This document shows, one piece after another, positions 92 through 63,775 of a stretch of DNA of 64,000 bases. The translations under genes were made by a program, and so were the position numbers. The notes below the pieces were generated by a model. It was not told the DNA's origin. It saw only the letters and a program-made list of their open reading frames with translations, and searched no databases. Each line of letters starts with the position of its first letter. Position 1 is the first letter of the stretch. Source of the DNA: Chrysomallon squamiferum (taxonomy: Eukaryota; Animalia; Mollusca); contig CM022677.1 of the NCBI GenBank assembly GCA_012295275.1, positions 9,300,001 through 9,364,000 of the forward strand, given 5' to 3'.

Positions 92-2288
92 TTATCACAG
101 ACAGACGTGCCTTGTATTTTGTTTAATTGTTTGTTGTTTTCTGTAGAAATGTTTTTTCTGTTGACACTGTTGCCTGACAACTCTGGCTGTGATTCCTTTA
201 AGCTGTCTGTTAATAAACAACATAGCAGTACTTACCAGTAGAATATGTAATGTACTATTACTGAACTTGTATAACATTAGTAATATTGATATTAGTAACA
301 GTATTGCAAAACAGGTATTCAATAGTAGAAATATTAGTATTTTATTACTAATCTAATAATAGTTCTATTACAGCAATAGTAACAAGTATTAGAACTAAAT
401 ATAGTAAATATAATAAACTAATATTATAATAAACTAGTAACATAATAAAGAGTAACATTAGTAACACTAAGCCATTAGGTAGTAGTAATAGTAACATTAA
501 TATTAGTAGTATTACAGAATTATTAGTAGTAGTGTATGTTACTTCATACTAAATTAGTAGTGGTAGTTATTAGTAGTAGTAGTGTATGTTACTTCATACT
601 AAATTAGTACTGGTAGTTATTAGTAGTAGTAGTGTATGTTATGGTAGTTATTAGTAGTAGTAGTGTATGTTATGGTAGTTATTAGTAGTAGTAGTGTATG
701 TTATGGTAGTTATTAGTAGTAGTAGTGTATGTTATGGTAGTTATTAGTAGCAGTAGTGTATGTTACTTCAAACTAAATTAGTACTGGTAGTTATTAGTAG
801 TAGTAGTGTATGTTATGGTAGTTATTAGTAGTAGTAGTGTATGTTACTTCATACTAAATTAGTACTGGTAGTTATTAGTAGCAGTAGTGTATGTTACTTC
901 ATACTAAATTAGTACTGGTAGTTAGTAGTAGTAGTAGTGTATGTTATGGTAGTTATTAGTAGTAGTAGTGTATGTTACTTCATACTAAATTAGTACTGGT
1001 AGTTAGTAGTAGTAGTAGTGTATGTTATGGTAGTTATTAGTAGTAGTAGTGTATGTTACTTCATACTAAATTAGTACTGGTAGTTATTAGTAGTAGTAGT
1101 GTATGTTACTTCATACTAAATTAGTACTGGTAGTTAGTAGTAGTAGTGTATGTTATGGTAGTTATTATTAGTAGTAGTGTATGTTACTTCATACTAAATT
1201 AGTACTGGTAGTTATTAGTAGTAGTAGTGTATGTTATGGTAGTTATTAGTAGTAGTAGTGTATGTTATGGTAGTTATTAGTAGTAGTAGTGTATGTTACT
1301 TCAAACTAAATTAGTACTGGTAGTTATTAGTAGTAGTAGTGGATGTTATGGTAGTTATTAGTAGTAGTAGTGTATGTTATGGTAGTTATTAGTAGTAGTA
1401 GTGTATGTTACTTCAAACTAAATTAGTACTGGTAGTTATTAGTAGTAGTAGTGTATGTTATGGTAGTTATTAGTAGTAGTAGTGTATGTTATGGTAGTTA
1501 TTAGTAGTAGTAGTGTATGTTACTTCAAACTAAATTAGTACTGGTAGTTATTAGTTAGTAGTGGATGTTATGGTAGTAGTAGTAGTAGTGTATGTTATGG
1601 TAGTTATTAGTAGTAGTAGTGTATGTTACTTCAAACTAAATTAGTACTGGTAGTTATTAGTAGTAGTAGTGTATGTTATGGTAGTTATTAGTAGTAGTAG
1701 TGTATGTTATGGTAGTTATTAGTAGTAGTAGTGTATGTTACTTCAAACTAAATTAGTACTGGTAGTTATTAGTAGTAGTAGTGTATGTTATGGTAGTTAT
1801 TAGTAGTAGTGTATGTTATGGTAGTTATTAGTAGTAGTAGTGTATGTTACTTCAAACTAAATTAGTACTGGTAGTTATTAGTAGTAGTAGTGTATGTTAT
1901 GGTAGTTATTAGTAGTAGTAGTGTATGTTACTTCATACTAAATTAGTACTGGTAGTTATTAGTAGTAGTAGTGTATGTTATGGTAGTTATTAGTAGCAGT
2001 AGTGTATGTTACTTCATACTAAATTAGTACTGGTAGTTATTATTAGTAGTAGTGTATGTTATGGTAGTTATTAGTAGTAGTAGTGTATGTTACTTCAAAC
2101 TGAATTAGTACTGTTAGTTGTTTTGGAGAACAGTAATTAAGTTGTACAATTATTATTTATATATTTATTTATTTATTTATTTATTATGATAGTTGATGTT
2201 GCTGTTATTATTATTATTACTGTTGTGGTTGTTGTTTTATCATTATTATTATTGTTATTGTTATTGTTATTATTAATATTTTTATTAT

Positions 2289-2321
<33 letters not shown>

Positions 2322-2664
2322 TTATAGGTTTACCTTTGTCTTGTCTTTTATTTTCAGAAATGTTCTTGACAGATTCTGTTTTCTTCACCTCTGCTGTTGT
2401 TGCTGTAGTTGTTTCATCACCACTTTGTGCTGCTGTTCTCTTTAAGCTAGTTTCTGACTGAACTGTGTTTTCACTGACTGTGTTACTGGTGTTTTCTACT
2501 TCTATCACTGGCACATGCTCTACCTCCATCATCTTTTTACCTACAAACAAGTGATATTTTTATATACCTCTTATCTCTTTATAGCACAGTGTGTCATTCT
2601 GTTTCTACATACTTTTCTTTGTACGATGTGTAAGTATGTGGGTGTGGAGGGTATTTTGTTTGTA

Positions 2665-2699
<35 letters not shown>

Positions 2700-5600
2700 T
2701 GTGTGTGTCTGTGTGTTTGTAGTCTGAATATGTCTGTATATATAGATATAGCATTTTAAATTAATTAATAAAAATACAATTAATAACAACTACAAATAGG
2801 TTATTTTATTCAGTTTTTACTGCTGTTTAATTTGAGCATGAAAAAAAAACAAAAAAACACCCATAACAGCTCTAGATACATCATATCAGACTATTTCTTG
2901 TTTTATTTAAACAGTGTTTTCTCAACTAATAGTTTAACCATAATTTATACATCAAAATTTCAACTTAAATAAACATAAATATGATAAATAAGTTTTGAGA
3001 TAAAATATTTATAATAAAGACTAAGGAATGTGTGTGTGTGATAAAAATATAATAAATATTTTCATACATAAAAATGCATGCAGAGGTGAGTTAAAATAAT
3101 GATTTGTTGAAACAAAAGAAATATTTGGAAAAGTTTCTGAAAAAAATATTTGTTGAGTGAAACAAATTTAAGGTGAATATTCAAACAAAAATAAAAAAGA
3201 TTTCAGTGAAAAAGAATACAAAAAATACTGAATTTTGTACTGTTCTTCTTTGCTTTATTTCTCTCCTGCATTACCACTTCTTTCATTTCTTCTGTTTTAT
3301 TTACTTCAGTTCTGTTTTCTATAGATATATATATATATATATGTATATAAATGTATATTTTTGTCTGTTTGTGTTTCATGTCATGCATATAAAATATAAG
3401 AGGTGCAGCAGTCTACAAGTGGAATGATACATGGGATACATGTCATGCTGTGAGACACACTGTGAGACAGGCTGTGAGACATGCGTGAGACACATGTAAT
3501 AAACAAACGTCACCTGCTACCATTGATCTGACACTAGACAGAAAACCTGTGGAGGTTTTTACCAATCGGCCAAATCTCTGCATACCTTTGTTTTAATAAA
3601 ACATAACACTGTGTAATGTTTATAAATACCAGTTTTGTATATACACACACACAAACAAACACACAGATACAATACAGACATATACATATACACATACAAA
3701 TACACAAACACCTACAAATTGATTCACACACAAACACACACACATACACACCCATTCATACATAACTAAACACACAGATATACATACATATTATACTCAC
3801 AAATACACATATAAATACACAGACACACATAACACACACACAAATAAACACACTGATAATACTAAATAGACTTACTTGTTTTTGTTGTTTCTGCTGATTT
3901 AGAAGACAAATTAGAAATTTCTCTTTCTGTTTCAGCTTTGTTCAGTGACACACCACCTTTGTCTGCGTTAGACAAATTTGACTTCTCTCTCTATAACAAA
4001 TGTTGTCACTTTTTAAAATATCAATGAAAAAATGGCACTAAATCAATGAAAAATATGAATAATTCAGATTATTTATTATACAATAATTTATTGAAGATAA
4101 ATTACTACTTCAGAGTACATAAAAATTGACAATTAAACATTTTAAAAACAGCAACATGAAAGTATGAAGGATTAAAAAGAATGTTGTAAAGAACTCAACA
4201 GAAAAGCATTGATTATTTTTTTTCAATGAGTACAGATATTTTGGCAACAGACATTTCATCAAGGTAACTTTCTTTCATTAAAAAACCTTCACAACATATT
4301 CACTGAAAACATGCTAAGCCAAATCACTGTACATTGTTTCAGACTGTGAGTGAAGCTGTACTCACTCTTCTAAGAAGTTTGGATACAACTCTGGATCTGG
4401 CGTTTGTCGACAGTTCCTCTATCGGGTTTGGGTACACTGCTGTTTTTTTTTCCTGTCTCGCTTTTTCTGGCAGTTTGGAAAGTTCTGGAACTTTGAGCCA
4501 GGCTCGTTGCTGGGCTTTGTCAAGAAAATTTAGAAATTCTGGCCAGCTGAGACAAAAACAACAACAAAAATGTATCTGTTAGTTTAAAAGTGTAATTTAT
4601 ACTGATTATCATCATTATCATCATCAATATTATTATAATTATAATCATAATTATTATTATTATCATCATCATCATCATCATTATGATTTAAAATTGGGTT
4701 CTGTTATTAGTTACTCAGTTTTTCATCTGATTTTCATTCAATATATATCATCTGTAATTATAACATTTTCATGTGATAAAGATGTATATTTTTTTCAAAT
4801 TATGTAAAATATCAATGACAAAAATGAATTCTTTTTGGATTTGCTTGTTTTGTTTAATTTTTCTGAGCTTTATTTTTAAACAAAATTTGTATATGACAGA
4901 GAAATGTGGTTACCTCACTTGGTCTGTTTTATCCACATCACATCTTTTAGCCAGATTTTTCAACAGAGCACCATACAGTGGAGTACGATCATTGCATATC
5001 AACATAACCTGAAAAACATTTACAACAAACCTGTCAACATCATATCAACATAACCTGAAAAACATTTACAACAAACCCATCAACATAACCTGAAAAACAT
5101 TTACAACAAACCCATCAACATAACCTGAAAAACATTTACAACAAACCTGTCAACATCATATCAACATAACCTGAAAAACATTTACAACAAACCCATCAAC
5201 ATAACCTGAAAAACATTTACAACAAACCTGTCAACATCATATCAACATAACCTGAAATCATTTACAACAAACCCATCAACATAACCTGAAATCATTTACA
5301 ACAAACCCATCAACATAACCTGAAAAACATTTACAACAAACCCATCAACATAACCTGAAAAACATTTACAACAAACCTGTCAACATCATATCAATATAAC
5401 CTGAAAAACATTTACATTAAATGTCACTTTATACTCTTCATCATGATGATCATCTTATTATTATTTGTGAAAATACAATGTGCAAATACAAAGACAGCCA
5501 CAACAATTCACACACACACACACACACACGCGCGTTATTATACTAGTAATACATTCTAATGAACTATTTAATGATGCAAATGATTATTAAAGTCAGGGAT

Positions 5601-8600
5601 GATTAATTTTCTTTCCCAGTTATCACAAAATTGACGTTATAAAAAAATATCATTGATTGAAATACTGATTACCAATAAATCATTCTCCTTCCTGATCTTC
5701 ATGTATAAAAGAATAAAAACAATCAAAGTAAATTCCAAACATCAGTCTCTGCAGCGGTGAAGTTAGTTCAACAATTACAAAATAACAAAACCCAACCGAT
5801 TACATTTACACCAAAAATAAAAAGGAAATAAATAAATAAATAAATAAAATATAAATAAATAATTAACAGTAAATAAATAAATAGATAAATAAAGAAAGAA
5901 AGAATAAAAAGAATAAATAAGTAAGTAAATAACTAGGCAATTAAAAAATAACTCAGTAGCATTAACTAAATAAATAAATAAATTTTGTGTTGATAAACAT
6001 TTAACTTTATGTGTTGCTTTTCAGATGACTTGACAGTTTTCTAAACTGAAACATATCAGAAAATGTTAGCTACAGTTAATTAACCTCTGCCTGAGGAACA
6101 AATAACTTAAATATTTGCCTATTCCAAATCAGCCAGTGAGCTTTTTAAAAAGAAATGGTTTCTGTATTTCTATTTTTCATAGATGGAAGAGATAAAAATG
6201 GGGGGATGATCACTTTTTAAGGGATTTACAAATAAATTTCCAATTCTCAAAATAGGGAAAGAAAACTTACCTGTACTGCTCAATAGTAGTAAAAACAATA
6301 ATAACAAAAGTAATAATAATAATAACAATAATAACAACAACAACAACAACAATGATGATGTTATTACTGATTCTTTAGATATTTTTCCTGTTCTTGTTGA
6401 GTCCCAGGACTGGAAATCTTTCCTCAGAGCGTCGATGTCAAAGAAAACTTTGTCTTTGATGAGCATTTCCTCAATACGTCTGATGAAGTCTGTGTCTTGT
6501 TTGTCCACCGTCACGTCTGTGTGGGCTGCCAGGTCGTTTCTCAGATGTCTCGCTAAAACACTGTCACGTCCTGCAACAACAACATCATTTTCAACACGTC
6601 TGTCTGTCTGCCTGTCTGTGTGTCTTTTGTGTGTATGTGTATGAGTATGGGTGTGTGAGTTGTACAATGTGTATGTCTTTGAGTGTATATATATTTTTAA
6701 CTCAAAAGCTTTACTTAAAACAAAGATTTCATTCTTACACATTTTTTCTTGAAATTATTAACATGGAATCCTTGTCATATCATGATATGTTAACTATGTC
6801 TTAGACATAAAATAATTATTATTTATTTTACCTCTTTGTTGTTTTTAACCTTATAGTCAAAATAAGAAAACTCACTCAGTAAACCATGATCTTAAATGTT
6901 ACTCAAATTTGACATCACTTACTTTTCTGGGCATTCAAAAATTTTAATAAAATACCAAAAAATATAGAGGAATTACAAAAACCCTGATACATTTATTTTG
7001 TCAAATCAAAAGGATGAGAAACAAATTATTTTTTTATGCTGGCTTTATTCACTAACTACCTGTTTTGTTATGAGCTGCTGTGAGACACTTGTACAGCTGT
7101 TCATAGTCCACACCAACATGATCCTCAAAAATGTCAAACATCATTTGAAAAAGTCGGTTTGATACTTTCACCTGGTTTTCCTAAAGAAACACAAAATTAT
7201 CTTCAGATTTAAATGTTTATTAAATAAATTAATATGCATACATTACTATTATTGTTGTTGATGTTGTTGATGTTGTTGTTTTTATATCAGAGCTACCTTA
7301 GTGGAAGTGACTGATAAAAACTAAAATGATCACCTGAAATGCTTGTTGAAGATCTTTCTGCGATATTCTGGCTTCTACGTTGCTATAACGACGCAGACTC
7401 ATGTGCACTGCTCTGAGCCTCTGTCTGGAATACTCCGCAAGTGCATCCTTTAAAAATGTTTCCAGTTTGCGTCTGGGATCAATCTGCTCAGCAGATGGAA
7501 TATCTGAATCACAAAAAATTCTTGTTACAGAAAAACAACAGAAAAAGAAATTCAGTAATATGACACATGGATATCAGTTAAGCACCTTCACTGTCAAGCA
7601 TGTTAATTATACTTAAAGAAGGTTAATTAAGGATAATTAACTTTGTGAATTGAAAGACAAAGGAGAAAGAAGTATATCAATATTTGATGTAAAGAAGCTA
7701 TCTAGGAGAACTTTACCAGCATCAGCCAGTTTTAGTCAGTTCAAAGTTAAATATATCAGATCAGAACAGAGTTATCTAATTGCTGTACACCATATATTAT
7801 CCTCTTTTAGTGTTTATGTGAAAATGTTTCATATGGCTGGCTAAGATATAACTGCATCCCTCATTTCTTCAGTTAGTAATATTTCCATCTAGTTGCTTTG
7901 GGTTTTTCATTAAAATATTTTTGTGTGAATATCAAGATGTTGTTTTTAAATCATAATAATTTAGATTTTTAGAAATGAAGAAGTGCAATGTGTATTGTAC
8001 AGCTTTGATGAGGTCAGAGTGAGTTATTTATATAATTCAGTATAAACTTATCATTAATAAAAACCACAAAAAGAAACAAATAAAAACAAAAACAACAACA
8101 ACCAGGAATAACAATTTGGAATTTGCTTTGTTAACGTACTCATGCAGATGGGCTGCAAGAAAAACGGACAGTAAAATAAAGTGACTGGAAGATTCAAAAA
8201 TCAAACCAGTAAATGAGTTACATTAGTTACGTCAATCTGGTTCCTTAGACGTATAATAATCTTAATATCTGCAAAATTATGACACTTTTTCCAGCAATGA
8301 CATGTTTCCTATCACTTCTCGTTTAGAAACCACGTATCACAGTTAGCGTTTCATGTGTTTCAAAAGACAGCTACTGTAATCATTTTATTTGTAACGTTAA
8401 TGTAATACGTTTCAGACGAGATCGTTCTTCATCGCAATAGTTATTACAAGCTATGTAAAGTTAGCTATTTAATTATTTCGTGGTGAATTATTAGTTCCAC
8501 CAGAAAATCGCAGGAATCTTTGTATAAACAAACTGTATAAAAGATAATAACATTATAGAAAGAAATAGATTTCATTGTAATAAAGAGAAAATAATAATCA

Positions 8601-8808
8601 GTAAAGGCACAGATTAATAATAATTAAAAAAAAAAAAAAAAAGATTTAATCTATTTATCAAATACCGATGGACGTCGCATAATTAGTTGTCTTACCTATA
8701 AATTCCTCTGTTGGTACTTCGACATTTCTCGGCGTTTTTCGTCCATATGGCGACGGAGAACGTTCTTGTCTACGACCCGCCTGTAAGTCAAAATCACTTT
8801 AGTTTCAG

Positions 8809-8849
<41 letters not shown>

Positions 8850-9643
8850 GAAAAACTCAGAAATTAGAATAATTTTCTATTAAGGTAATGCATTATTTTT
8901 ATTATTTAAATATAGATTTGACAATATTTGAGCAACATGAAATTTATATACATTGTTTGTTATAATCACAAGTGGAATTATTATTATAATAATAAATAGA
9001 TTAGATAATAATAATCTTCATTAAACATGTAAGAACTGTTAATTATTATAACCGTTCTTACAGAATGCAGGGTGTCGAGGGAATTGCCAGAACCTTTATA
9101 ACTAGCATTTCTTTCTTTTCTGTTCTGCGTTCTTAGAGTAGAACTCATTGTGACATCAACTTCTACGTCAACATCATCATTCTGAAATTATAACACTACA
9201 GTAAAAACAATACGTAAACTAGAGCAACATGAGCATGTTACAATGCAATGCACTAAATATAACTGACAAAGACAATGATAACATAATTATTTTTTTCTGT
9301 TTTACAACAAAGTAGTGTTCCTGGTAGCAATGTATTAGAAATGAAAAACACAACACAACACAACAACAACAACAACATGTGTTAATATCACTGTTAATGC
9401 TACTACTACGACTTTTGCTCCTATTATAACTATCTCGGTTGCTGCTGCTATTGCTACTACTATTACTATTTCTACTACTACTGGTATTTCCATATTACTA
9501 TTACAATTGCTGCTGCTACTACTACTAGTACTGTTGTTACTATTATTGCTACCGCTACTACTACCATGTCTACTGCTTCTACTACTATTATTAGTTTTGT
9601 TGCAAATGTGACTTACCTTACACAAACTGCCTGTGTTACTCAT
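92..9643 (-). CDS. Uncharacterised degenerate EF-hand-like protein (possibly C1orf87-like), 3'-partial, start uncertain
   Basis: Phase-consistent exons: 9617-9643 (ATG; exon may extend to 9672), 9062-9181, 8696-8780, 7334-7503, 7060-7180, 6368-6570 (DFQSWDSTRTGKISKE), 4914-5008 (CDVDKTDQVS), 4366-4546 (WPEFLNFL), 3876-3990, 3241-3318 (weak), 2334-2540, ~92-206 (weak end). EF-hand-like loops are followed by a Glu/Lys/Thr-rich disordered tail. The family name is tentative. Confidence 0.75.
520..2115. repeat. Complex intronic minisatellite (31-bp core with optional 19-bp insert)
   Basis: Repeated tggtagttattagtagtagtagtgtatgtta, irregularly followed by cttca(t/a)actaaattagtac. Confidence 0.95.
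4997..5416. repeat. 35/46-bp tandem repeat (11 copies) containing a splice acceptor
   Basis: Unit caacataacctgaaaaacatttacaacaaacc(cat|tgtcaacatcatat); the leftmost copy overlaps the exon boundary at 5008. Confidence 0.95.
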
Positions 9644-17566: not shown

Positions 17567-18052
17567 TTAAAACCAAAACATTTACATGTCAAGAATTCAT
17601 TATCTGAAATGTCTGTGACTGCAAGTGTTTTGGTTTTTGAAATTAAAAGGAAATAACCAAAATTTAAGTCTAAATGCAAAATCCATGTATAAAAACATAT
17701 TATTAATTATACATTTTTAACAGAAAGGAAAAGATGGTGTGCAAATGTTTTCCTAACCTGTTTCGTATATGGCTTTCAGAGATAGCATGCATGATTTAAA
17801 AAAAAAAAAAAAAAAGCTTTGTTCATGAAATTAAGTCTGGACATGCTAAACCATCTGAAAACTGTATATATTACCATTTTGTCTGATCACAAAAAGTTTT
17901 ATTGTACATATGTTACATCATTTATAGATCATAATTTTACATAAGGGATTCACAACCTATATATATATATTTTCTAAAAAAATTAACAAAAAGTGTTATA
18001 AATTCTTTTTGAAAAAAAACTATATAAATAAAAAAACTAATAAAAAAAAACT

Positions 18053-18692: not shown

Positions 18693-21600
18693 TCAGTGCA
18701 TCTGTTCCAGTGCTGCAGCAAGTCTCAACATGTCAATCAAACCCAGGTTTAGTCGTTTCTCAAGGCACTGGTAGAAATAATCAGGCGCCTGCAATAACAA
18801 TATAATTATCATAGAACACAAAACAGAATAGAATAAACTTAACCAGAAATAATATTTTTATTTTTAAACATATGTGTTTATGACGAAGTAAGACAGCATT
18901 AAACATAACCAGAACATTTCTTCGAGGATAAACAGTAATAAACAAAAATAGCAGTACCTCTTATTTCATTTCTTTGAGGTTAAACAGTAATAAACAAAAA
19001 TAGTGTACCTCTTGTTTCATTTCTTTGAGGTTAAACAGTAAGAAATAAAAATAGCAGTACCTCTTGTTTCATTTCTTTGAGCTGCCAAACAAGCTGTCCA
19101 TCAAACTGATTAAATAACGTCAGACAACTGAAAAAACCCAAAACACATAGATATATTTCTAATTTTATATTTTTTTATTTATATTAAATAATCTGGTAGG
19201 CAGTCAATTGATTGTTAAGTCCTGAATGATTTAAACTGAATAACTGTTTCTAATCTGTAAAACAATCATGTTATACAACTTTTAGGTCTGTTGTTAATTT
19301 CAAGACTTCGTCCAAACTGATTTTAGACTAATTTTTAGAAACAATATTCTTATTGCTTGTCTTTAGAGCTTCCTCCCTGTGGCTGCTTTAACTCAGAATA
19401 AATTATCTCCTTTAGATCAACTTTTAGTAGTTCTTTTGAGACTTAGCAATGATTTTCACAAGTTTCCTTCAGTTAAAAGTTTTCTGCTCTAGGTTAACAA
19501 AAATGTATTGTGAATGGGCTTTTTTTTAATCAACAAAATTGGACCCTAATTCGTATTATATCATCTGTTTACATCATATTATTACAGTAATGATTAATAA
19601 ATTTCAAATAGCTTAAACAGTTTATAAAAGTATTTTAAGTGGAAGGCTACTGTCAAACTCTATTCATAACATATTTATATTTATTTTTAAAATAAAGTCA
19701 GAGTTCATACAATGCTATTATGTGCTGGAATGAGGGACTCACATCTTGATTATTGCCAGACTAGTTCAATAAACTGTAAATACTGTAGAAATGTATCTTT
19801 AAAAGTCTTGAAATCAATTTTTGAAAGAGAAAAGTAACATTAAACTTCTAAGAAACGCCTACTTTTCTAACTGGTTTGCCAACAGCCACTTCTGTACATC
19901 ATCCTGTGTCATCTGAGTGTGAGGAGGAAGCGGTTCACTCTGTGTGATGCTGTAGTTGGTGCGGTGAGGATTTCCTTTCAATGTGTCCACTGTTGTCATT
20001 ACTTCTGCCGGTGCATCAACATCGTCTGAAATATTGAGTGCAAAATCTGTTTATTGCTATCTGCATTATAATAAATTTACTGAAACTTGATAATTATTTT
20101 TAACTAAGTTTTATAACAGCAAACATAACAGCTGTATTCTAAATAACACATTTAACAACAACATGTTCTAGTAATAATACATAAAAAATAACAACGTCAG
20201 TAAGTCCTAATAATAAAACACTTAACAATTCCAGGTTCTAGTAACACTAGGTTTTAATAACAATACTAGGTTTTAGTAAGAAAACTGTGCTCTAGTAACA
20301 ACACTAGATTCTAATAACAAAGTAACAGTATCAATAACACTCTTACCTATACTTTGTTGTGCACTGACAGAGCCTTTCTGTCCACGACCTCGCAGTTCTT
20401 TGAGCAGACCTGACATGGACTTCTCAAATGGATATTTTCCACTAAAGTCAAAGAAAAGTTTTGCCCCAAGAATCAGTCCCAGCCACCCGTCCGGCCTGTA
20501 TTTTCTCTGCATCATCAGTGGTATGTAGTCTTTACGTAACTGGAATGTGTACTCTGCCTCTAAATATTAAAAAATAAAATAAAATAAAATAAATAAATAG
20601 ATAAATAATAATTATAATAATAATTACAATAATAATGATGATGATGGTAATATAATAATAAATAATAATAATAATAATAATATGATGATGATGATGATAT
20701 AAAAATCATTTTAATAAAAGTGTAATAAACCTGATCTGAATTTCTCACGTAATTTTGTAAGCTTGATCACTGGTTTCAGAAAACAAAAAAAGAATTTAAA
20801 ACTTGTTTTGAAAACTCTGCATTCATAAAATCAGCTTTAATGGATCGCAAATTTCTGAGTGACGTTAAATAACCTATTTCTCTTTAAGACTGAGAGTTAG
20901 CAAAATCGAAATTAAAACAACTGCGTAAGAACTACAGTGTTTATTTAATTATTATTTAAAGACACCCTGTGTCGTAACAGTTTGTTAAAAATACCTGTGC
21001 GGCAGTTTGGACTCTGTTTATACTTTTCTGACATGCACACTAAGACTACTGCAGCATTTTCAATAGCTGTGGCCATTGCCTCCAGTGTAGACCCACCCAT
21101 TTGCTCAATGTCAATCCAAACTGAATAACCCTCTGCCTGCAAAAACGCATTAAAACATTTTTTTGTCATTGCTATAATCCTATGCATCTTTCCAAGTTAA
21201 TTAAACCAAAAAAGTGAAATCTAGCTAACAAAATGAAATCCTATTTAATATCATGGCTCCATTTTGAAGTATATTTAAAAAAGAAGAATATTATTCTGAA
21301 TGATCTCTTTCTGTCATAATACACTGGCTTCCCCAGTCAAAACAGATGTCTGACAATGTCACTGCATCTGTAGTCAGCAATATTATCTGTTGTATAACTC
21401 ATATAATACTCCTTAGCAAAACATTTCATTAACTTTGTGGTAGAAAGTCAATGGTTATGTTAACAAATAAACAATTTAAAAGTAATGTGCAATTCTCTAA
21501 TGAAATGGATAAAAAATATATTAATAATAAAATAGAAAGTTTGCTATAAAAGTTTAATATAACTGATATACCTTCCATAGTCAAAAGAAAAAATATCAGT

Positions 21601-21776
21601 TTATTTTAAAACATTTTACTTTTGTTTTGTCACACACTGTTCTAATTGCTGTTTTAATTCACAAATAGTGTCTATAATGTATTTATTTCTCATGTGAGTA
21701 ATTAAAAACTATTAAATAAAAACAGATTTGAAACAAACTATATGATTATGAAAATATTTAACAAATACTTTTTACA

Positions 21777-21815
<39 letters not shown>

Positions 21816-22758
21816 AATAAATAAATAAATAAAAATAATAATATACCAAAAAGATTCATTGCACCATATGTCAATATATTTCCCCTGGACTTAATGAACT
21901 GAAAACAAAGTTTCTTACCTTCAGTTTGTTGAGTATCTCTTTAGCCTGCTGCTGGTCACTCCAAGAATAACTAATGAAAATGTGGTTTTTGGTTTTTACT
22001 GCTGATTTTGGACCTGATTTGAAAAAAATTGTTAGATAAATAAACAAATAAATAATTAAATAAACTAATAAACAAGTAAAAACCAAACAAATAAATTTTC
22101 AAATAAATAAAGGACCACATAAGCAAACAAGCAATAACAAAAAATACAAACAAACAAATAAATAAAACAAATAATAAATAAGCAAATAAATAAATAAAGA
22201 AAGAAAGAAAGAAAGAAAGAAGGTAAAAAGAAGAAAGAAGGACAGTTCATTACAAATAAGAGGAGCAGTTATTCAGCCTAGAGATGATTCCTACTAAACA
22301 AATAGCATACTGTGACTATTATTATTTTTTATTAAAAATAAAATCACTGGGATGCACATTCTGTTTGATCAAGCTGAGAAATGTAAATTGATTAATCTAG
22401 TTCTCTGTGAACTGAACCAAACAATGTAATAATACAAATATGAGTAATGATCTGTTAAGTTATCAACTGCTGTGGCCATGTGACTATAGTTACATTCATT
22501 AAAATGGTTCTTGATGAAAATCACTGATTTAGGGTTATCTATATCACTATATCACCTATGGTATTTAATAAAATTGTTTCACTATACGAGTCAGGCTGAA
22601 AGCAGAATGCTTTATTATAAAAAATCTTTTGAGACTTTTTCTCTCTGAGACTTTTTTATTTTGAGTTTGATATTAAACAGATTAAAGTGCCAATATAAAT
22701 TTCACAGTAACTGGAAAATCTACAGATAAATATAAAATGTTTAAAGAACAAACAGGTG

Positions 22759-22808
<50 letters not shown>

Positions 22809-22815
22809 GTGTGAG

Positions 22816-22871
<56 letters not shown>

Positions 22872-25829
22872 TGTATGTGTGAATGCATGCATGTGATAAA
22901 GCATATACAAACAAGACTTACGTTCACTTGTAGGATCAATTTCTCCTTTCAGTATCCACAATGCACCACTGGCATTTTTGTGTACTTCCTTATCTGAACT
23001 TTCTGATAGTTTTTCTAATGTTGGCACAAGATTGTCAAACTCAACAAGTTTTTGTTTCACTCCCTTGTCAAACGACAGAGTCCATATACACCTCGCAGCA
23101 ACACTGTGTTCTCTAACATCATCATGTAACAACATCTTCATAAACAACGGTATAGCACCTTCTTCTATTATCTGAAATTTGTAAATATTAAAATATTTAC
23201 CAGAACAGAATACAAATCTCTTTGATTATAAGTATTAAAGCAAATTTCAGTATTTTTGGGTGGGATGAACCAAGAGTCTAAACTAAAAAAAATTGGGTTT
23301 TTGTTTTTTAAAAATTGGTAACTGATTAGAATGTCATAAACCATGGCATAATTTTAGGAATAGGGGAAAAAAAAAACAAATGATATAATAGTATTATTAT
23401 AAACCAACTCACTCTTGATTTGTTGCCATCATTGACAGCTAGTTTGTCTAGACCCTGAGTTAATTCTGTAGGACTAAAGCCTTTAAATCGCCGTTTTGGA
23501 CTATCCAAAGCTTTCTCTATCCATAGCACTATATTCTTAATAGTTCCTGAACAGAAAATATAATTGTTTACAAAGAAAACTCATTTTTTTCAAATCACAG
23601 AAACTTTTCATGAACTGCAGCCAACTGTAAACAAACTAAATTAAATTTGTCCTTTAGTAAAATTCTTTATACAGAATAACAAAGATTGTTATTAATTTAA
23701 AAGAAGTTCTAGGTTTCATTAGCTTTGGTAAATTTGTTTTATTATAAATATAATAATAATAATAGTTTTTAAATTCTTTATATTTTTAATCTTTTATTAT
23801 TAATTACATTAAACTTACAAATTGATGAAAACATATTATTAATTATAAATTTTTAACAGAAAGGAAAAGATGTTGAGGAAATGTTTTCCTAACCTGTTTC
23901 ATCTATAAGTTTGCCATTGTCTTCTTCCTCCACAATGTACGCTAATGTCAGCATCGCCAACACCTTCAGCATGTCATCATTCATTGTTATAAATGGCATG
24001 ATGACCTGTCACCAAAAATATTCATATTCTTTATTTAATCAAGAGAACATAGCATACATTTAGTGTCATTTTCAGGAAATGTAAACACAACATAATGTTT
24101 ACAGAAATGTGAAATCATACATACTTAAGACTTTTTTTTAAGTACACTCAAAACCTAAAAAGACTGGTTTTTGAGAGGATACTTCAAATAAAACATATAT
24201 ATAATTAACAAAATATAAAAAAAGAAGAAAAAAAGAAAAACGTAAAATTAAAATAAAATAAAGATATGTAAAAACAAACTAACAAAAGTAATAAAACTGT
24301 CAAGTTTACAAATTAAAATTAATTACATCTGATGTTTTGTTTTCTTTAAAGAATGTCTTGGCAACTGGATTTCTGGCAATGTTGTGTAGAATACTCATGG
24401 AGGCTTTGATCACATAGTACACATTCTGAAAAACAACAGAAAACATTTGTCTTTGTTATTTTCAAAGACAGACATATTTTATTATCTTGCCAGTATACTG
24501 AGATAAAAATATATTAATAGTAACATGCTATGTACTGCACAGAAATACATATATATTAATACTAACCTTTCTGTGTACTACACTGAGATAAAGATATATT
24601 AATACTAACACTGCTATGATCTGCACTGAGATAAATATATATTATTACTAACCTTGCTATGTACTGCACTGAGATAAGGTTTGTGACCACAATTCAGAGT
24701 TAACAATCTTACTGCATCTGCTTCTGCTAAATTCTGAAAAAATAAATATACAAAATAAACCCAATAATGTCATTATAATTATTTTTTGATATAAAAAAAT
24801 TTATTGTCAGATATTTTATTCATAAACTGTTTAAGTGTAACGGTTTTATTTCTGATCATAGCAGTTAATATAGAAATTAACATCTAATAACTCAGTTTGC
24901 TTTAAGCTATTGCATAATATGCTTACCAATTTAAAGAGAAGGAAATAATAAAAATATTTGTGCTCAAAATCTTTACTTATTAATTTTCACTCTATCTGAC
25001 AAATGTAAAATGATTACTTTTCTCTCTGACATTTCAACTGTAGTTTTATATAAACAGATTACTATCTTACTAACTTACTTTGGCTAACAGCTCACTGCAG
25101 TCTGAGTAGTTCCAGGTTGTGTTGTATGTGTAGTATGTAGGGAACCAGACATCATCATTCTTAAAAATACCAATAGTGTTCAGTCCCTTTAAGATCCGAA
25201 CAGTTATTGCTGTAATAAGAAATTCAGTCTATTAATACAAATGTCATGAAAGTGTTTCATTATCCCTTTCCATTATCCAATTTTAAATTTTAAAAATGAA
25301 TCACACTCACAGAGTATTATAATATACATATATATATATACATAAAATACATAGATATAAAAATATTGGTAACAGTTAAAATTAAAAGGATAATAACATT
25401 CCTAGTTATCTGAGACAAATGTCTAAGTTCAAACATATAGTAATTACAACTGACCTGCATAACCAGCCTCAGCTATGGCATCACCTATCTGTTTTCTGTG
25501 AGACGTGTAATCCCAGTAGAAATCTCCCAGACATTTCTGTAACTGCATCACCTCAGATCTGTTAAACTCAACAAACTTGTCCAGCTCTGAGACTATTGCT
25601 TTAGCCTTTTCAACTACATCTTCTATAGGCAAATGTTTGAGATTTTTCCTGTCCTCTACCAAGCTGCCATTAACCTGGGTGGAATTTTGATTGGTAAACT
25701 GTTTTTCTGTTTGTTTCTGACTTGATGCTTGGTTTTGATTAGAGGTTGTCTTGGAAGCTGACTGGTTGGCATCCTGTACATTTGTATACATGCTGCTGTC
25801 TATAGAGTCTTGCACACTGATCGGACCAT
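18693..25829 (-). CDS. ARM-repeat + TIR + C-terminal SAM-like domain protein (13 shared coding exons)
   Basis: GT-AG, phase-consistent exons: 25455-25829, 25079-25209, 24653-24733, 24327-24425, 23894-24005, 23413-23546, 22922-23171 (ARM-like: IIEEGAIPLFMKML..AARCIWTLSF..NASGALWIL), 21919-22013 (TIR box 1 HIFISYSW), 20995-21136 (GYSVWIDIEQMGG..VCMSEKYKQSPNCRT), 20347-20559 (EAEY..IPLMMQ..PDGWLG), 19863-20025, 19061-19127, 18693-18788 (SAM-like DVQKWL..FDGQLVWQL..LGLIDMLRL, TGA). Confidence 0.92.
18915..19080. repeat. 51-52-bp tandem repeat (3 copies) containing a splice donor
   Basis: Unit aaacagtaataaacaaaaatagcagtacctcttgtttcatttctttgaggtt; the rightmost copy is the 3' end of exon 19061-19127. 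Confidence 0.9.
22762..22881. repeat. Interrupted (GT)n microsatellite
   Basis: Seen directly. Confidence 0.93.
24487..24678. repeat. Degenerate ~42-bp tandem repeat (about 5 copies) containing a splice donor
   Basis: Unit ~tgctatgtactgcactgagataaatatatattaatactaacc; the rightmost copy is the 3' end of exon 24653-24733. Confidence 0.82.
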
Positions 25830-27328: not shown

Positions 27329-28362
27329 CATTAGCAAATGTTATCAGTCAGCAGTAAAAGATATTTTACATTAGCAAATGTTATCAGTCAGCAGTAAAAG
27401 ATATTTTACATCAGCAAATGTTATCAGTCAGCAGTAAAAGATATTTTACATCAGCAAATGTTATCAGTCAGCAGTAAGATATTTTACATCAGCAAATGTT
27501 ATCAGTCAGCAGTAAGATATTTTAATCAGCATATCTTTCCAGTCAGCAGTAACAGATATTTTATATTAGCAAATCTTATCATTCAGCATTAACAGATATT
27601 TTACATTAGCAGATCTTATTGTGCTGCAGTAAGAGATATTTTACATTAGCAGATCTTATTGTGCTGCAGTAAGATATATTTTACATTAGCAGATCTTATT
27701 GTGCTGCAGTAAGAGGTATTTTACATTAGCTGATCTTATTGTGCTGCAGTAACAGATATTTTACATTAACAAATCTTATTGTGATGCAGTAAGAAATATT
27801 TTACATTAGCAGATCTTATTGTGCTGCAGTAACAGATATTTTACATTAGCAAATCTTATCAGTCAGCAGTAACAGATATTTTACATTAGCAAATATTATC
27901 AGTCAGCAGTAAGAGATATTTTACATTAGCAGATCTTATTGTGCTGCAGTAACATATATTTTACATTAGCAAATCTTATCAGTCAGCAGTAAGAGGTATT
28001 TTACATTAGCAAATCTTATTGTGCTGCAGTAAGAGATATTTTACATTAGCAAATCTTATCAGTCAGCAGTAAGAGGTATTTTACATTAGCAGATCTTATT
28101 GTGCTGCAGTAACAGATATTTTACATTAACAAATCTTATCAGTCAGCAGTAAGAGGTATTTTACATTAGCAGATCTTATTGTGCTGCAGTAAGAGATATT
28201 TTACATTAGCAAATCTTATCAGTCAGCAGTAACAGATATTTTACATTAGCAAATCTTATCAGTCAGCAGTAAGAGGTATTTTACATTAGCAGATCTTATT
28301 GTGCTGCAGTAACAGATATTTTACATTAGCAAATCTTATCAGTCAGCAATAAGAGATATTTT
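27329..28362. repeat. 40-bp minisatellite (~26 copies, two variant types)
   Basis: agcaaatcttatcagtcagcagtaacagatattttacatt is interspersed with agcagatcttattgtgctgcagtaagagatattttacatt. Confidence 0.95.
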
Positions 28363-30430: not shown

Positions 30431-31169
30431 CATCAATACATTTTTTCTCAATGGAATCCCAGTGTGAAAGCAGTAATATGACTTTGGCTGATTTCTGTCT
30501 GCTTGTTGAAGAAACAATTTTATCTTTCACATAAACATCAACAGGAATAATGGATCCACTTTCAATAATATCATGAACTACATTTGCAATACTTTGCCGT
30601 TTTAAATTATGTGGATAAAAGTCAAGTATTTGGTTGGCTTCATCTGAATGATGGTATTGTTTTTCTTGTATATTCCTGTTTTCTGCTGGATCATTCAGTC
30701 TCAGTAAATCAGACTCTGTAACTGTCTGATCACTAGAAAAGCTAACATCTGAAGAATCAATTTGTCTTCTACTGCCAGGTTCAGTTTCAGCTACATCAAA
30801 TCCAGAAGAAAATTTAATTTGTGAATTATTAATTAACTTAACAATTTCAAACATTTTTTCATTTTTGTTTGAAACAGCATCAACTAAATCAACTACATTT
30901 GATTTGTTGTCCTCTGCCTGAGATGAACTTGAATCTAAAACCACTGTAATTTCATCACTTAGCTTTGATCTATGACATAAATCATCATCTTCTACACAGC
31001 AGCTTTTTAATTCTTCTGTGAGATTTTGTGATTTTGTAGTTTCTAAAGTAACAAGAGGTCCTGACATTACTTCTGAAAATCTTTCACTTCTCCTATCAGT
31101 GGCAGATCCTACCACCACAGACAGAATGTCAGTATTTGAAACTGTTTGTTTTTCTATCGTTTTGGCCAT
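30431..31169 (-). CDS. Alternative first coding exon of the ARM-TIR-SAM gene (246-aa acidic/Ser-rich N-terminus; 898-aa isoform)
   Basis: The longest ORF in the window, in AT-rich surroundings. It ends at GAT G|gtacgt, a phase-1 donor compatible with the phase-1 acceptor at 25829. Confidence 0.72.
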
Positions 31170-32191
31170 AGAGAAAAATACATATAGTTATTGGGACAGC
31201 TGTTTCATGTCAAGCTTCAGTGATCTTTGCAAACTATTATGCCAATGCACAATACAGTATATATATACATATATATATATTATGAAAATGTATTGTTTAT
31301 GTCACTGAACTCACTCAAAACCATTAGACAGTCTAATAAACTACTCCAGTAAAAGCAAGTTCCTGTAGAAAAAACTTGTTAAGTACACAAACATTGATCC
31401 CAAAAAACAACTCTCCTCTCAAAATTTCAGGAAAAACTATTTATTTAACTTTTCCATAAAAAAACACTCAGATAACTCTAGCAATGAGCAGACTTGCAGA
31501 CTATTAACCACTTGTTGACAAATACATTCCACACTGCTTCAAAACATGACTTGAATCAACCAAGCAAACAAATACTATAAAGTCTATCTGACAAGCCCTG
31601 TTTGTACAAAATGACACACAATTATTCCAACAGCTTAACAAATTATGAAAATATTACCATCAATTAACATGAATTGCCTAAGTGTACATTAAAGAGACAA
31701 ACACTAGAGTATTTTGTTGACTGACTAAAATATCAGCCAGAATAAACAGCATATTCCCCCAGAGTCTCACCTTTGTTGAGATGTACACTACGTCCATTAT
31801 CAGTGTCCAGCAATTTATGATTGTCAGAAATATAGCTCTATGTAGTAATATGATCACAATCCCTAGACCATTCATACCATCAAGGGAAAACAATAACTGC
31901 AAGTTTTATAAGCCATCACCACAGAAATGATTGACAACTGGAAATAAGCCAATTCCTATACCAGCTGTTGGTGTCAAAACTAACTATGTTCCAATGAACA
32001 GCCTTTGTTTAGTAAATTCAAACAAAATATAACTAGTATTATGGAAATAATCAATTTGTTATTTGCTTTAGTGATACACATATTTTACACACACATATAC
32101 AAACATACAAAATCACAAGCAAAAGATGTATGTGTGTATGAATGTGTGTGTATGTGTATGTGTAAGTTTTGTGTGTGTGTGTTTTGGCATG

Positions 32192-43583: not shown

Positions 43584-43823
43584 TTAAGACAGAACTGTTG
43601 GTTTTATTGTAGACTTTTTCTCACTGAAAAATCCACGCAATACAAAAACCTGTCCTACACTGACAATCATAATAAGCAGTGTCATCCCAAGTGACCAGTA
43701 TAAAACATGTGAATTGAGTGTCTGGGCAAATATTCGTCCCTGTGCCTCTCGTAGTCTGTAGTGAGTCTGTCCATCAGCTATGTACTTGAGAGCTTCATGG
43801 ATTTCAACACATCCAGTCTCCAT
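43584..43823 (-). CDS. TMED7: TMED7-like alternative (distal) terminal exon: coiled coil, TM and cytosolic tail (213-aa isoform)
   Basis: Acceptor catag|ATG is phase 0. METGCVEIHEALKYIADGQTHYRLREAQGR..VLYWSLG..GQVFVLRGFFSEKKSTIKPTVLS* is intact and colinear with exon 3a; no separate upstream GOLD exons were found. Confidence 0.88.
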   Translation of the reverse strand: METGCVEIHEALKYIADGQTHYRLREAQGRIFAQTLNSHVLYWSLGMTLLIMIVSVGQVFVLRGFFSEKKSTIKPTVLS

Positions 43824-45527
43824 CTATGAAATGCACAAAATCTCATTAAACAAGTTTGATATTCTTCTAAATACATAACATGACCAAGGTAATAAAAACA
43901 TTACAACTGTAAAAGAATCAAATTATAATGAATTAAAATGAGCATTAAAAACTAACAAGTAAAATGCTGAGTTACAAAGCCATGTATGACATTTTTCCAT
44001 ATAACAAAAGAAAAGTTAATAACAACTGTAAAAAAAGACATCTGTTTAAATTATTAGTTTTTAAAAAGTTGTATTAGCCACTAAATTGTCTAATATTATA
44101 TATTGGAAGGAAATTGAGATAACATTCTTTACAATTCTTTTCAGGAACTGCTTTTTTCATTCCCCCCCCCTCCAACTGCTTCATTTCTATTGGAAAAATC
44201 ATGGTAAAAATGCAAAACAAATTAACATTAAGTGGTAGTGATTTTGATTTTATTATTATCTGAATTATGAAAACATTTTGTTCAAAATATTTATAACACT
44301 GAATTAGATCAACAGTCATGAATTATTTAGTTTCTTTTATTACAACTTACTAACATCACTGTCTTGTTTCATTACAAAAATAACTGAACAAGTAGAGTGT
44401 AATAACAGTAAAACCACCAGTAAATAACTGTTTTGCTCAGTTATTTTCTTTTTCCAAATTGAACAACTTCAAAGATAAAGTAAAAATGCCTTTTCTTCAG
44501 CTCTTTAAAGTATTGTTATGAATATAACTCCATCAAGAAAACATTATTTGCAAAATAATACATTTTATTCTATGAAAAAAATAAACACATGCCATAGTTT
44601 TCCTTTTTTTTGTTCTTGACTTTTTTCTTATTATCATCTGAATTATGAAAACATTTTGTTCAAAATATTTAACTAAAAAATGCAAGTAATCATTTATCAC
44701 AAGTATTATTCTGTATTTCCACAGCACTGTTCTTGCTGTTTACTCTTCTACAACACTTCCAGTGAAAACCAATTTTCCTACTTCACAGCTTTGTAGAATG
44801 ACTCAGTAACACTTTTATTAGCGAGTACATATTTAGTCTATAGATTTATAACCTGTAACATCATCTCCAGATATTTTATTGGTAAAAATCTAAAGTTATG
44901 TGATTATCTATTATAATACAAGAAAATTTACTTTTTAAAAAATATACATTACTTCATTCATCTGAATTATGTAATTACATCCCATATTGTATCTAGTTAG
45001 TTTTATTTTTGTCTTTGACTTTTTAATCCTAACTGATATATACTATTTAACTTAGGTGTTTTTTATTATTCGCATCACAGACATATCCATATTTGTAGTT
45101 ACTGTATTTTCTTGTAAAATACTTATTATATCCTGCTGTGTAAAAGTGGAAATACAAATCGCCATACCCAGCTAACTTCATCTGCTCTAATAAATTTCTT
45201 TCTTACAGTTTATTTCCTATTTTGTTTTCATACTGAATTAGAAAATTTATCTGGACTTTTCTTGATACAAATATAACTGAAAATGGCTCATGACAGACTT
45301 AATAAAAATAAGAAATAAATAATTAAATAAAAAAACGCTATTTTTGTTAACAGCAGTAGTTTTAATCTGATCAGTTTATGACTTCCAGCTGTATATATAT
45401 ATATAAGACACATAGTAAAAACAAAACCCACAATGTCAGTATTTGAACATTGTATTATGTACATCACTTAAGACAAAAAAAAAAAATGATATTAAAAAAA
45501 TTACTATTAGTAATAATAAAAATGGAA

Positions 45528-45574
<47 letters not shown>

Positions 45575-46206
45575 TAAAACAATAATAATAATAATAAAAA
45601 TAAAAAAAAATAAAAATATTGGTACTATTAATAAAGTATAATAAACAAAAACATTATGTTAAATAAAGAAAACAATGATTATTTATACTAAAATCAGGTT
45701 TCTGAAGCTAATATTTCTGCCACCATCAAACTAAATTTTGCAATAATAAATAACAGCAATTTTCTATATAATCCTAATGTGGCTAATTCAAATTCAGTAA
45801 ATATTTATTCATAACCAAAATTCACAGGAAATATCAGTCAATAATTCAAAACAAATATTCTAATGAATTTGTTCTGAGTTTGGTTATTATTAGTATTTTA
45901 TTTTTATTTTTTCCTTTTCAAAACAAATTAAATATTTTAATATAATTCTAACTCTTATGAAACAATATAACTTTATTTCTAAACTGAAGGGATGAAATAA
46001 TTTATTTTCATATATAACAATTCATTCAACTATTCTCGAGAAAAAATATAAAAATATTTATCATTAAACTGAAAACAAACTCTGAATACACAATCAGGTA
46101 AACTTTCAGCTGACATGAATTATTTATAACTAAGTAACACTCATTCCCTGACTGTTCACAGAAATAAAATTTGTTAGAATTATAAAACACTACAACAGCT
46201 TGTCCA

Positions 46207-46775
46207 TCACGTGACAGTAGATGTTTTGTGTTTATCAGTGAACAGGCTTCTCAACACTAGAATCTGTCCAAGGCCTATAGCAACAATAACAACACTTTGT
46301 CCTATACTCCAGTACAATACACGTTCATTAAGATCTTCAGCAAATGCCCGACCCTGTGTTTCTCGAAGACGAAAATGAGTTTGGTAATCTATTACTGTGT
46401 TCAAACTCTCATGAATGCTCACAGCAGACGTTTCCATCTAAAATGAGAAATGTGAAAACAATCTGTTACCTAAACACCATGTGATCCTGAATAGTGACAT
46501 CTGCTTTTTCAACAAATAAATCCAAAATTTAGTATTATTATAAACAATTATTTAATGACCTATATACAGAAAAAAAGCAGGAAAACACTGTTTTCCTTTT
46601 GTCTTGTTTTTTTCATAAACTGATAATTTTGAAGTTCAATAAGCAGTGTCGTGTTAACTATTCAGTATCAATATTTGGTGCCAAATTTATTATTATACAA
46701 GCAGATCATTTAATGTAGCAAAAATATACCATTATCCAATTCCAAATACCACAGAACCATAAAGCTTGAAAAAAT

Positions 46776-46829
<54 letters not shown>

Positions 46830-54127: not shown

Positions 54128-63775
<9,648 letters not shown>

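What the first reader, a model, noticed from the sequence alone, without database searches (positions are those of the whole stretch)
18693..25829. ARM-TIR-SAM protein: SARM1 domain set in shuffled order with an intact TIR catalytic-position glutamate
Seen: 13 clean exons encode ARM-like helical repeats, then a TIR (FISYSW..VWID..S..Y..SPNCRTEAEY), then a SAM-like C-terminus. Established: SARM1 is ARM-SAM-SAM-TIR, with an ARM sensor/autoinhibitor, SAM oligomerisation and a TIR NADase whose catalytic Glu sits in a (W)CxxE-type helix in plant and bacterial TIRs. Here CRTE keeps that Glu, its codon split G|AG across intron 20560-20994. Inference: an independently assembled sensor-gated, oligomerising NAD+-cleaving immune or cell-death enzyme rather than a TLR adaptor.
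Basis: partly seen in the sequence, partly recalled or inferred. Interest (0 to 1): 0.8.

Follow-up and report, generated by a model that had tools for sequence, protein, structure and literature searches.

The report
Snail ARM-TIR-SAM candidate NAD-cleaving enzyme
This is a real, spliced snail gene whose protein has the same three kinds of domain as the nerve-death enzyme SARM1 in another order, but it belongs to a separate, very old and already catalogued family shared with algae and amoebae that likely cuts NAD+ and for which I found no functional test.

Summary
The gene is real. All 13 exons have AG/GT ends, give one open frame, and split the Glu codon G|AG as described. A 14th coding exon (31169-30431) was missed; one RNA contig joins it to 25829, giving 898 aa. 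ARM, TIR and a single SAM are confirmed or well supported.

It is not SARM1 and not a new assembly. Relatives with the same domain order occur in molluscs, other invertebrates, green algae and amoebae. They are catalogued as TIR group 18, TIR clade 10 (SARM1 is clade 8) and 'ARM-TIR'; a placozoan protein of this order is labelled ecTIR-DC 3, 'Sarm1-like'. This scan has reported the family before in sea urchin, oyster and octopus.

The catalytic-position Glu is kept in 372 of 385 family TIRs. The Trp four residues before it, needed for ADP-ribose cyclisation in tested TIRs, is absent in all 385 (mostly Asn/Ala/Ser).

Best reading (0.45): a regulated NAD+ hydrolase yielding mainly linear ADP-ribose. 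Activity, ARM gating and SAM clustering are all untested. A non-catalytic scaffold (0.3) or a signal-making cyclase (0.2) remain open.

The parts
30431..31169 (-).
   Evidence: In-frame stop 7 codons upstream and open 898-aa frame; RNA contig joint 30431 to 25829 in 1 of 4 runs, contigs on the exon in 2 of 4; same motif in register in 5 oyster, scallop, mussel and octopus proteins
31170..31226 (-). 5' untranslated stretch seen in RNA
   Evidence: One RNA contig covers 31062-31226; contigs cannot show the true start
25455..25829 (-).
22947..25635 (-). ARM solenoid, residues about 312-632, exons 2-8; 21 helices, about 7 repeats in the model of the 86%-identical orthologue
   Evidence: Pfam Arm E 1e-8 on exon 23171-22922; AlphaFold2 model of P0001; Z 20-23 to armadillo proteins
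20384..21984 (-). TIR domain, residues 651-778, exons 22013-21919, 21136-20995 and 20559-20347
   Evidence: Pfam TIR_2; TIR fold in both models; Z 12-16 to solved TIRs including SARM1 (model of paralogue P0057)
20558..20995 (-). Glu720 codon, G at 20995 and AG at 20559-20558, split by phase-1 intron 20560-20994
   Evidence: aligned to the Glu of C. elegans TIR-1, Cat1 and RPS4; Glu in 372 of 385 distinct family TIRs
21005..21007 (-). Asn716, at the position of the Trp of the WxxxE motif
   Evidence: Aligns to Trp in Cat1 and RPS4; Trp in 0 of 385 family TIRs, Asn 276, Ala 63, Ser 23
18699..19921 (-). Single divergent SAM domain, residues about 826-897, exons 20025-19863, 19127-19061 and 18788-18693, after a 45-residue flexible linker
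   Evidence: Five helices at pLDDT above 90; oyster orthologue passes the Pfam SAM_3 cut-off; a profile of the animal region hits the stretch that Pfam calls SAM_2 (E 1e-9) in algal relatives; ESM Atlas leads under its naming bar
18693..18695 (-). Stop codon TGA

Best explanation
The gene encodes an 898-residue ARM-TIR-SAM protein of an ancient eukaryotic TIR family, and it likely works as a regulated NAD+ hydrolase that is predicted to release mainly linear ADP-ribose rather than a cyclic signal. Shown: gene, splicing of the first intron, domain order, Glu at the catalytic position, loss of the Trp four residues upstream, deep conservation of the pocket-side motifs. Inferred: Glu720 attacks NAD+ once TIRs are brought together. 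Inferred by analogy with SARM1 and untested: the ARM solenoid holds the TIR off until a ligand or partner binds, and the C-terminal SAM clusters the protein. Inferred: the outcome is local NAD+ loss or ADP-ribose signalling in stress, defence or cell death. The trigger is unknown.
For: The TIR is the most conserved domain: mean identity to the window protein is 0.77 TIR, 0.60 ARM, 0.46 SAM among 36 mollusc orthologue-like proteins, and 0.61, 0.24, 0.30 among 132 others. In a 137-row alignment spanning animals and algae the near-invariant columns cluster in strand A/AA loop, BB loop/helix B and helix C, plus helix D; PMC7075850 names the first three as forming SARM1's ligand pocket (passage). 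The Glu aligns with that of TIR-1, Cat1 and RPS4 and is kept in 372 of 385. The Chlamydomonas protein is 33% identical over 342 aa of ARM plus TIR, so the conserved surface predates TLR/MyD88 signalling (established knowledge). Non-TLR animal TIRs, including a mollusc one, are enzymes in E. coli (10.64898/2026.04.20.719644). In 10.1101/2022.05.07.491051 (passages) all 12 cyclase TIRs had an aromatic residue at the Trp position, and AbTir W204A stayed partly active but made far less cyclic product (24% versus 93%).
Against: No activity was measured. The Glu is in more than 70% of all TIRs, including inactive TLR2-type ones. Only 12 of 61 Glu-bearing animal TIRs were active, and most active ones made cADPR without depleting NAD+. 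Trp-to-Ala abolished activity in plant L6 and ROQ1 and lowered it in SARM1, so the Asn may mark an inactive pocket. A second Glu (722) is nearly as conserved, 339 of 385, so conservation here may be structural. The ARM region resembles generic armadillo proteins; SARM1 is not among the 50 best structural matches. No evidence was obtained for SAM self-association.
Confidence: 0.45

Rival explanations
1. Non-catalytic scaffold or regulator: the TIR binds other TIR proteins or a nucleotide without cleaving it, while ARM and SAM recruit partners. In animals it could tune TLR/MyD88 signalling.
For: Glu conservation does not track activity. 49 of 61 animal TIRs with the Glu showed nothing in the E. 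coli screen. The Trp is lost in all 385, and non-aromatic residues there are commoner in non-cyclising or inactive TIRs. Surveys file the Aplysia orthologue LOC101845869 under TLR adaptors. Some unusual amphioxus TIR proteins inhibit MyD88/TICAM signalling (review passage; their architecture was not checked).
Against: Full-length relatives exist in green algae and amoebae, which have no TLR pathway (established knowledge). The invariant residues map to the elements that form the NAD pocket. The E. coli screen tested isolated domains and looked for three cyclic isomers, so it undercounts.
Confidence: 0.3
2. Signal-making TIR enzyme: on activation it produces cADPR or an unrecognised ADPR conjugate for a downstream receptor, using a remodelled pocket in which the invariant Trp658, Arg718 or Tyr723 replaces the lost Trp.
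For: Most active non-TLR animal TIRs made cADPR without depleting NAD+, and one cADPR-producing protein in that figure carries ARM (figure legend only). Trp658 is kept in 326, Arg718 in 354 and Tyr723 in 367 of 385.
Against: All 12 cyclase TIRs tabulated in 10.1101/2022.05.07.491051 have Trp, Tyr or Phe at the -4 position; only 4 of 385 here do. Which tested TIRs belong to this family could not be seen because that preprint's supplements are closed.
Confidence: 0.2
3. Origin rival: the family is a rearranged SARM1 paralogue sharing a three-domain ancestor, not an independent assembly.
For: Same three domain types. The Chlamydomonas member hits SARM1/TIR-1 chains weakly by summed score (E 3e-5 to 5e-3, best stretch in SAM, no stretch passing alone). 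The family TIR-SAM profile's best PDB hit is TIR-1 (E 0.007). A placozoan protein of this order was labelled Sarm1-like.
Against: The TIRs fall in different clades in two published classifications: group 18 versus 24 and clade 10 versus 8, where SARM1 nests among bacterial TIRs. P0001 finds no SARM1 chain at E up to 1. RPS4 TIR is a better fold match (Z 15.6) than SARM1 (Z 12.4). Aplysia has SARM genes as well.
Confidence: 0.1

Closest known systems
TIR group 18, 'TIRs of lower Metazoa' (Toshchakov and Neuwald 2020, PMC7075850)
   Same: The group consensus in supplement 1 is essentially this TIR, and its listed members include Lingula XP_013394066.1, which is my hit P0293, and a Volvox protein.
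   Different: Defined on the TIR alone, described as mixed in architecture; I found no discussion of the ARM-TIR-SAM order, the missing Trp or function in the passages read.
TIR clade 10 of the eukaryotic TIR atlas (PMC13142454)
   Same: Lingula P013357 (my P0331) and a 996-aa Volvox Arm-TIR-SAM protein (same length and domains as my P0366) are clade 10; 408 entries, the first 14 from amoebae, many with TIR followed by SAM_1.
   Different: The paper states that clades 9-13 are uncharacterised; no biochemistry is given.
ecTIR-DC family 3 / invertebrate 'ARM-TIR' class (Gerdol 2017, not held; PMC6321704 supplement; PMC9334734; PMC4346834)
   Same: [quoted passage not shown] The Aplysia orthologue is listed as ARM-TIR.
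   Different: Proposed there as adaptors or regulators. Sequence homology of the Trichoplax protein to this gene was not tested.
SARM1 / dSarm / C. elegans TIR-1
   Same: ARM, SAM and TIR modules; Glu at the catalytic position; TIR fold match Z 12.4, rmsd 2.9 over 118 residues.
   Different: Order ARM-TIR-SAM with one SAM rather than ARM-SAM-SAM-TIR; about 20% TIR identity; Asn instead of Trp638; different TIR clade; no detectable ARM sequence similarity, so the NMN/NAD+ allosteric site cannot be assumed.
Cat1 (CRISPR-associated TIR 1) and plant RPS4 TIR
   Same: Among the nearest solved TIRs by sequence and fold; helix C aligns with the Glu in register.
   Different: Both keep the Trp and have unrelated regulatory domains; similarity is weak (E 0.005-0.07).

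Membership tests
SARM1 family | Order ARM, tandem SAM, C-terminal TIR | tested here: not met
   ARM-TIR-single SAM
SARM1 family | TIR of group 24 / clade 8 | tested here: not met
   Family members are listed in group 18 and clade 10; no SARM1 hit for P0001 at E up to 1
SARM1 family | Catalytic Glu equivalent to E642 | tested here: met
   Profile alignment to TIR-1, with a 4-residue insertion just before it; residue-level superposition was not available
SARM1 family | Nicotinamide-stacking Trp (W638) | tested here: not met
   Asn716; 0 of 385 family TIRs have Trp
SARM1 family | NMN/NAD+ allosteric pocket in ARM | tested here: inconclusive
   No ARM alignment to SARM1 could be obtained
SARM1 family | SAM-mediated octamer | not tested
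   No complex prediction could be run
TIR group 18 / clade 10 | Group consensus motifs in strand A, BB loop, helix C and helix D | tested here: met
   The window TIR matches the printed consensus by inspection
TIR group 18 / clade 10 | Homology to listed members | tested here: met
   Lingula P0293/P0331 and Volvox P0366 were retrieved with family queries and are listed members
ecTIR-DC 3 | Armadillo-TIR-SAM architecture of about 660 aa | tested here: met
ecTIR-DC 3 | Sequence-based family definition of Gerdol 2017 | not testable with these tools
   Paper not held; Trichoplax sequence not in the supplement text
NAD+-cleaving TIR enzymes | Measured Glu-dependent NAD+ cleavage | not testable with these tools
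   Needs a bench assay
ADPR-cyclising TIR enzymes | Aromatic residue four positions before the Glu | tested here: not met
   Asn here; aromatic in 4 of 385; rule
MyD88/TIRAP/TRIF adaptors | Death domain or adaptor-type TIR lacking the Glu | tested here: not met
   No death domain by Pfam; Glu present, whereas it is rare in MyD88 and TIRAP

The most novel reading that the evidence does not exclude
ARM-TIR-SAM proteins are a second SARM1-like NAD+ switch, older than animals and possibly as old as eukaryotes, built separately from SARM1 and kept in algae, amoebae and most invertebrate phyla. Their Trp-less pocket would do chemistry unlike known TIR cyclases, gated by an unknown ligand on an ARM groove whose key residues are conserved from algae to snails, with lipid-anchored, organelle-targeted and cytosolic versions differing only in the N-terminus. 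The single Chlamydomonas-type and mollusc orthologues make this directly testable.
Probability: 0.25. Interest if true: 0.75.

Novelty: new member of a known kind. Interest (0 to 1): 0.42.

Why it matters
SARM1 was long the only animal TIR enzyme. If this family is also a gated NADase, then a sensor-TIR-oligomer switch arose twice and the older version is widespread in invertebrates (expanded in corals), algae and amoebae, yet unstudied because common model animals seem not to carry it. The family-wide loss of the cyclisation Trp gives a sharp prediction about its product. This particular gene adds little beyond being a clean, expressed, conserved orthologue; the family is catalogued and the scan has met it before.

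Tried and rejected
No whole genome is held for this window, so paralogue count and a true SARM1 gene in this animal were not checked. RNA was laid only on the upstream exon; the other 12 introns rest on splice signals, open frame and homology. The ARM-with-TIR complex prediction could not be run because the queue was full, so ARM-TIR binding is open. Mean-field coevolution on 292 sequences (effective 114, 531 columns) did not recover a believable contact pattern and is uninformative. An IQ-TREE run did not finish; the FastTree tree is midpoint-rooted, has no SARM1 or bacterial outgroup, and does not decide between inheritance and transfer for the algal genes. A viral-contig scan with an environmental relative found none. 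A 47-aa exon found nothing in the PDB, and an alignment containing ARM returned only armadillo proteins in the 60 rows shown. I rejected the idea that the Chlamydomonas TIR shown to make 3'cADPR (E264) is this family: the family Glu is at 337 in the 496-aa model and 431-547 in longer algal models; this rests on numbering only. ORF 30051-29782 was considered as an exon and rejected, since the RNA joint skips it. In one search several armadillo-peptide fusion structures align out to model residues 459-460 in TIR helix C, and the model's pTM is 0.69 (ESM Atlas model 0.57); this may hint that the TIR docks in the ARM groove, but only end residues are reported, so I give it no weight. Ten literature searches found no functional study of this family; 'ARM-TIR-SAM' as a phrase returned 0 papers. 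Most subscription papers are not in the library.
Full report
Observation. The region is AT-rich eukaryotic DNA. The Glu codon is split G|AG across intron 20560-20994. The product is 86% identical over 644 residues to Gigantopelta aegis LOC121373745, so the host is inferred to be a related gastropod. Four RNA runs of one study hold 0.16-0.23 of the sampled words of an interval that is 0.26 coding, as expected for a spliced transcript.

The gene is longer than reported. Position 25829 is a phase-1 acceptor. An exon at 31169-30431 begins with an ATG seven codons after an in-frame stop, ends in a phase-1 GT donor and gives an 898-residue frame. Its 3' end encodes a motif found in register in 5 oyster, scallop, mussel and octopus proteins. 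In 1 of 4 RNA runs a contig of depth 2 stops at 30431 and continues with 18 letters identical to 25812-25829. Other orthologues carry different sequences before the same junction or start at the internal Met, which suggests alternative first exons (inference).

Domains. Pfam gives Arm and TIR_2 on the window's exons and on the orthologue (TIR_2 E 2e-25, Arm E 1.5e-8). AlphaFold2 was run on the orthologue P0001, not on the window's own protein: mean pLDDT 80.9, 21 helices of ARM, a flavodoxin-like TIR, a disordered linker and a five-helix C-terminal domain. The ARM matches generic armadillo proteins at Z 20-23, with no SARM1 chain among 50 rows. A TIR-SAM model of a paralogue (pLDDT 64) matches RPS4 (Z 15.6), Hydra TRR-2, MyD88, Cat1, TIR-1 and SARM1 (Z 12.4-13.2). 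The SAM is supported indirectly: Pfam SAM_3 above cut-off in the oyster orthologue, and a profile of the animal region hits the stretch that Pfam calls SAM_2 at E 1e-9 in Chlamydomonas.

Family. A search with one TIR exon returned 67 of 128 candidates, mostly molluscs. A Nematostella query returned 612 hits among 7,993 scored, many of them coral paralogues. A TIR-SAM profile found 684 clusters at 50% identity with E up to 1e-30. Of 327 proteins then held, 255 were ARM-TIR-SAM by family profiles. Of 20 diverse representatives looked up, 17 carried names: 5 molluscs, 2 annelids, 2 nemerteans, 2 flatworm, 1 brachiopod, 2 echinoderms, 1 tunicate, 1 lancelet, 1 green alga. The algal query returned Chlamydomonas, Gonium, Volvox, Astrephomene and Haematococcus proteins with Arm, TIR_2 and SAM; the snail and Chlamydomonas proteins are 33% identical over 342 residues. 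No vertebrate, insect or nematode name appeared in these lists, but only top hits were shown, so absence was not tested; PMC7075850 reports some bony-fish members of the TIR group. In a FastTree tree of 137 rows the nearest orthologue sits in a supported mollusc clade that roughly follows the species tree.

Prior description. In PMC7075850 (passages and supplement 1 parts 9-10) the group 18 consensus is this TIR, with animal, Volvox and apusozoan members. In PMC13142454 (section 5, passages, supplement 1 rows) Lingula and Volvox members are clade 10, called uncharacterised, while SARM1 is clade 8; the first 14 of 408 clade 10 entries are amoebozoan, many with TIR then SAM_1. PMC6321704 (passages, supplement 1) shows a Trichoplax Armadillo-TIR-SAM protein labelled ecTIR-DC 3, Sarm1-like. 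PMC9334734 (passages, supplement row) lists the Aplysia orthologue as ARM-TIR, and PMC4346834 (passages) uses the same class for oyster. Gerdol 2017 was not held. Ten searches found no functional study (see Tried and rejected). The scan's own notes report the family from sea urchin, oyster and octopus.

Active site. The family profile aligns Glu720 with the Glu of C. elegans TIR-1, Cat1 and RPS4; that these are the catalytic residues is established knowledge. Glu is kept in 372 of 385 distinct family TIR domains of at least 96 residues; a second Glu two residues on is kept in 339. The position four residues before is Trp in Cat1 and RPS4 but Trp in 0 of 385 here (Asn 276, Ala 63, Ser 23, Tyr or Phe 4). 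According to 10.1101/2022.05.07.491051 (passages), all 12 cyclising TIRs had an aromatic residue there; Trp-to-Ala shifted bacterial TIRs towards linear ADPR, lowered SARM1 activity and abolished that of two plant TIRs. The Glu alone is weak evidence: it is in over 70% of TIRs, and 12 of 61 Glu-bearing animal TIRs were active in the screen of 10.64898/2026.04.20.719644 (parts 1-4 of 6 read; supplements closed). Against that base rate, the TIR is the most conserved domain and its near-invariant columns lie in the elements that form the NAD pocket, across lineages without TLR signalling.

Mechanism. I favour a regulated NAD+ hydrolase with mainly linear product (0.45), over an inactive scaffold (0.3) or a signal-making cyclase with a remodelled pocket (0.2). 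ARM gating and SAM clustering are analogies only; the complex prediction could not be run and coevolution was uninformative. Twelve ARM positions are at least 85% conserved from algae to animals, clustered in the last three repeats, which implies a conserved binding partner, either the TIR or a ligand (inference). A myristoylation-like N-terminus occurs in 76 of 132 non-orthologous members and 0 of 36 orthologue-like ones (pattern recalled), and several algal members have N-termini that look like organelle transit peptides (by eye).

Verdict. The gene is a new member of a catalogued, functionally untested family. Interest 0.42.

Noticed in passing
window 18915-19081: A 52-base tandem repeat (3.2 copies) duplicates the last 21 coding bases and the GT donor of exon 19127-19061 twice into the following intron; the copies sit behind in-frame stops, so they are probably unused donors.
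   Followed up: partly
window 24497-24677: A 43-base tandem repeat (4.2 copies) likewise starts inside exon 24733-24653 and copies its 3' end and donor-like sequence into the intron.
   Followed up: partly
window 17718-17770: A 53-base copy (91% identical) of the donor region of exon 24005-23894 lies about 1 kb downstream of the stop codon.
   Followed up: no
window 27329-28362: A 40-base minisatellite of 26 copies in the first intron.
   Followed up: no
window 43587-50429, minus strand: A p24/TMED (EMP24_GP25L) gene region with two separate exons encoding the same C-terminal part of the domain (46210-46437 and 43587-43823): alternative last exons or two neighbouring genes.
   Followed up: partly
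window 54131-63263, minus strand: A pyruvate kinase gene with two exons encoding the same end of the PK_C domain (56956-57225 and 54131-54481), suggesting alternative C-terminal exons.
   Followed up: partly
P0045, P0054, P0059, P0066 and other paralogues: Many paralogues begin with an MG-x-x-x-S/T-like myristoylation pattern, some with a nearby Cys: 76 of 132 versus 0 of 36 orthologue-like proteins.
   Followed up: partly
P0068-P0073, P0187, P0323: Coral, anemone, annelid and snail proteins with tandem ARM-TIR units; in one Biomphalaria copy the Glu is lost.
   Followed up: no
window 2173-9187, minus strand: Exons of another gene (EF-hand-like wording in ORF 6170-6754 by eye); not identified.
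   Followed up: no
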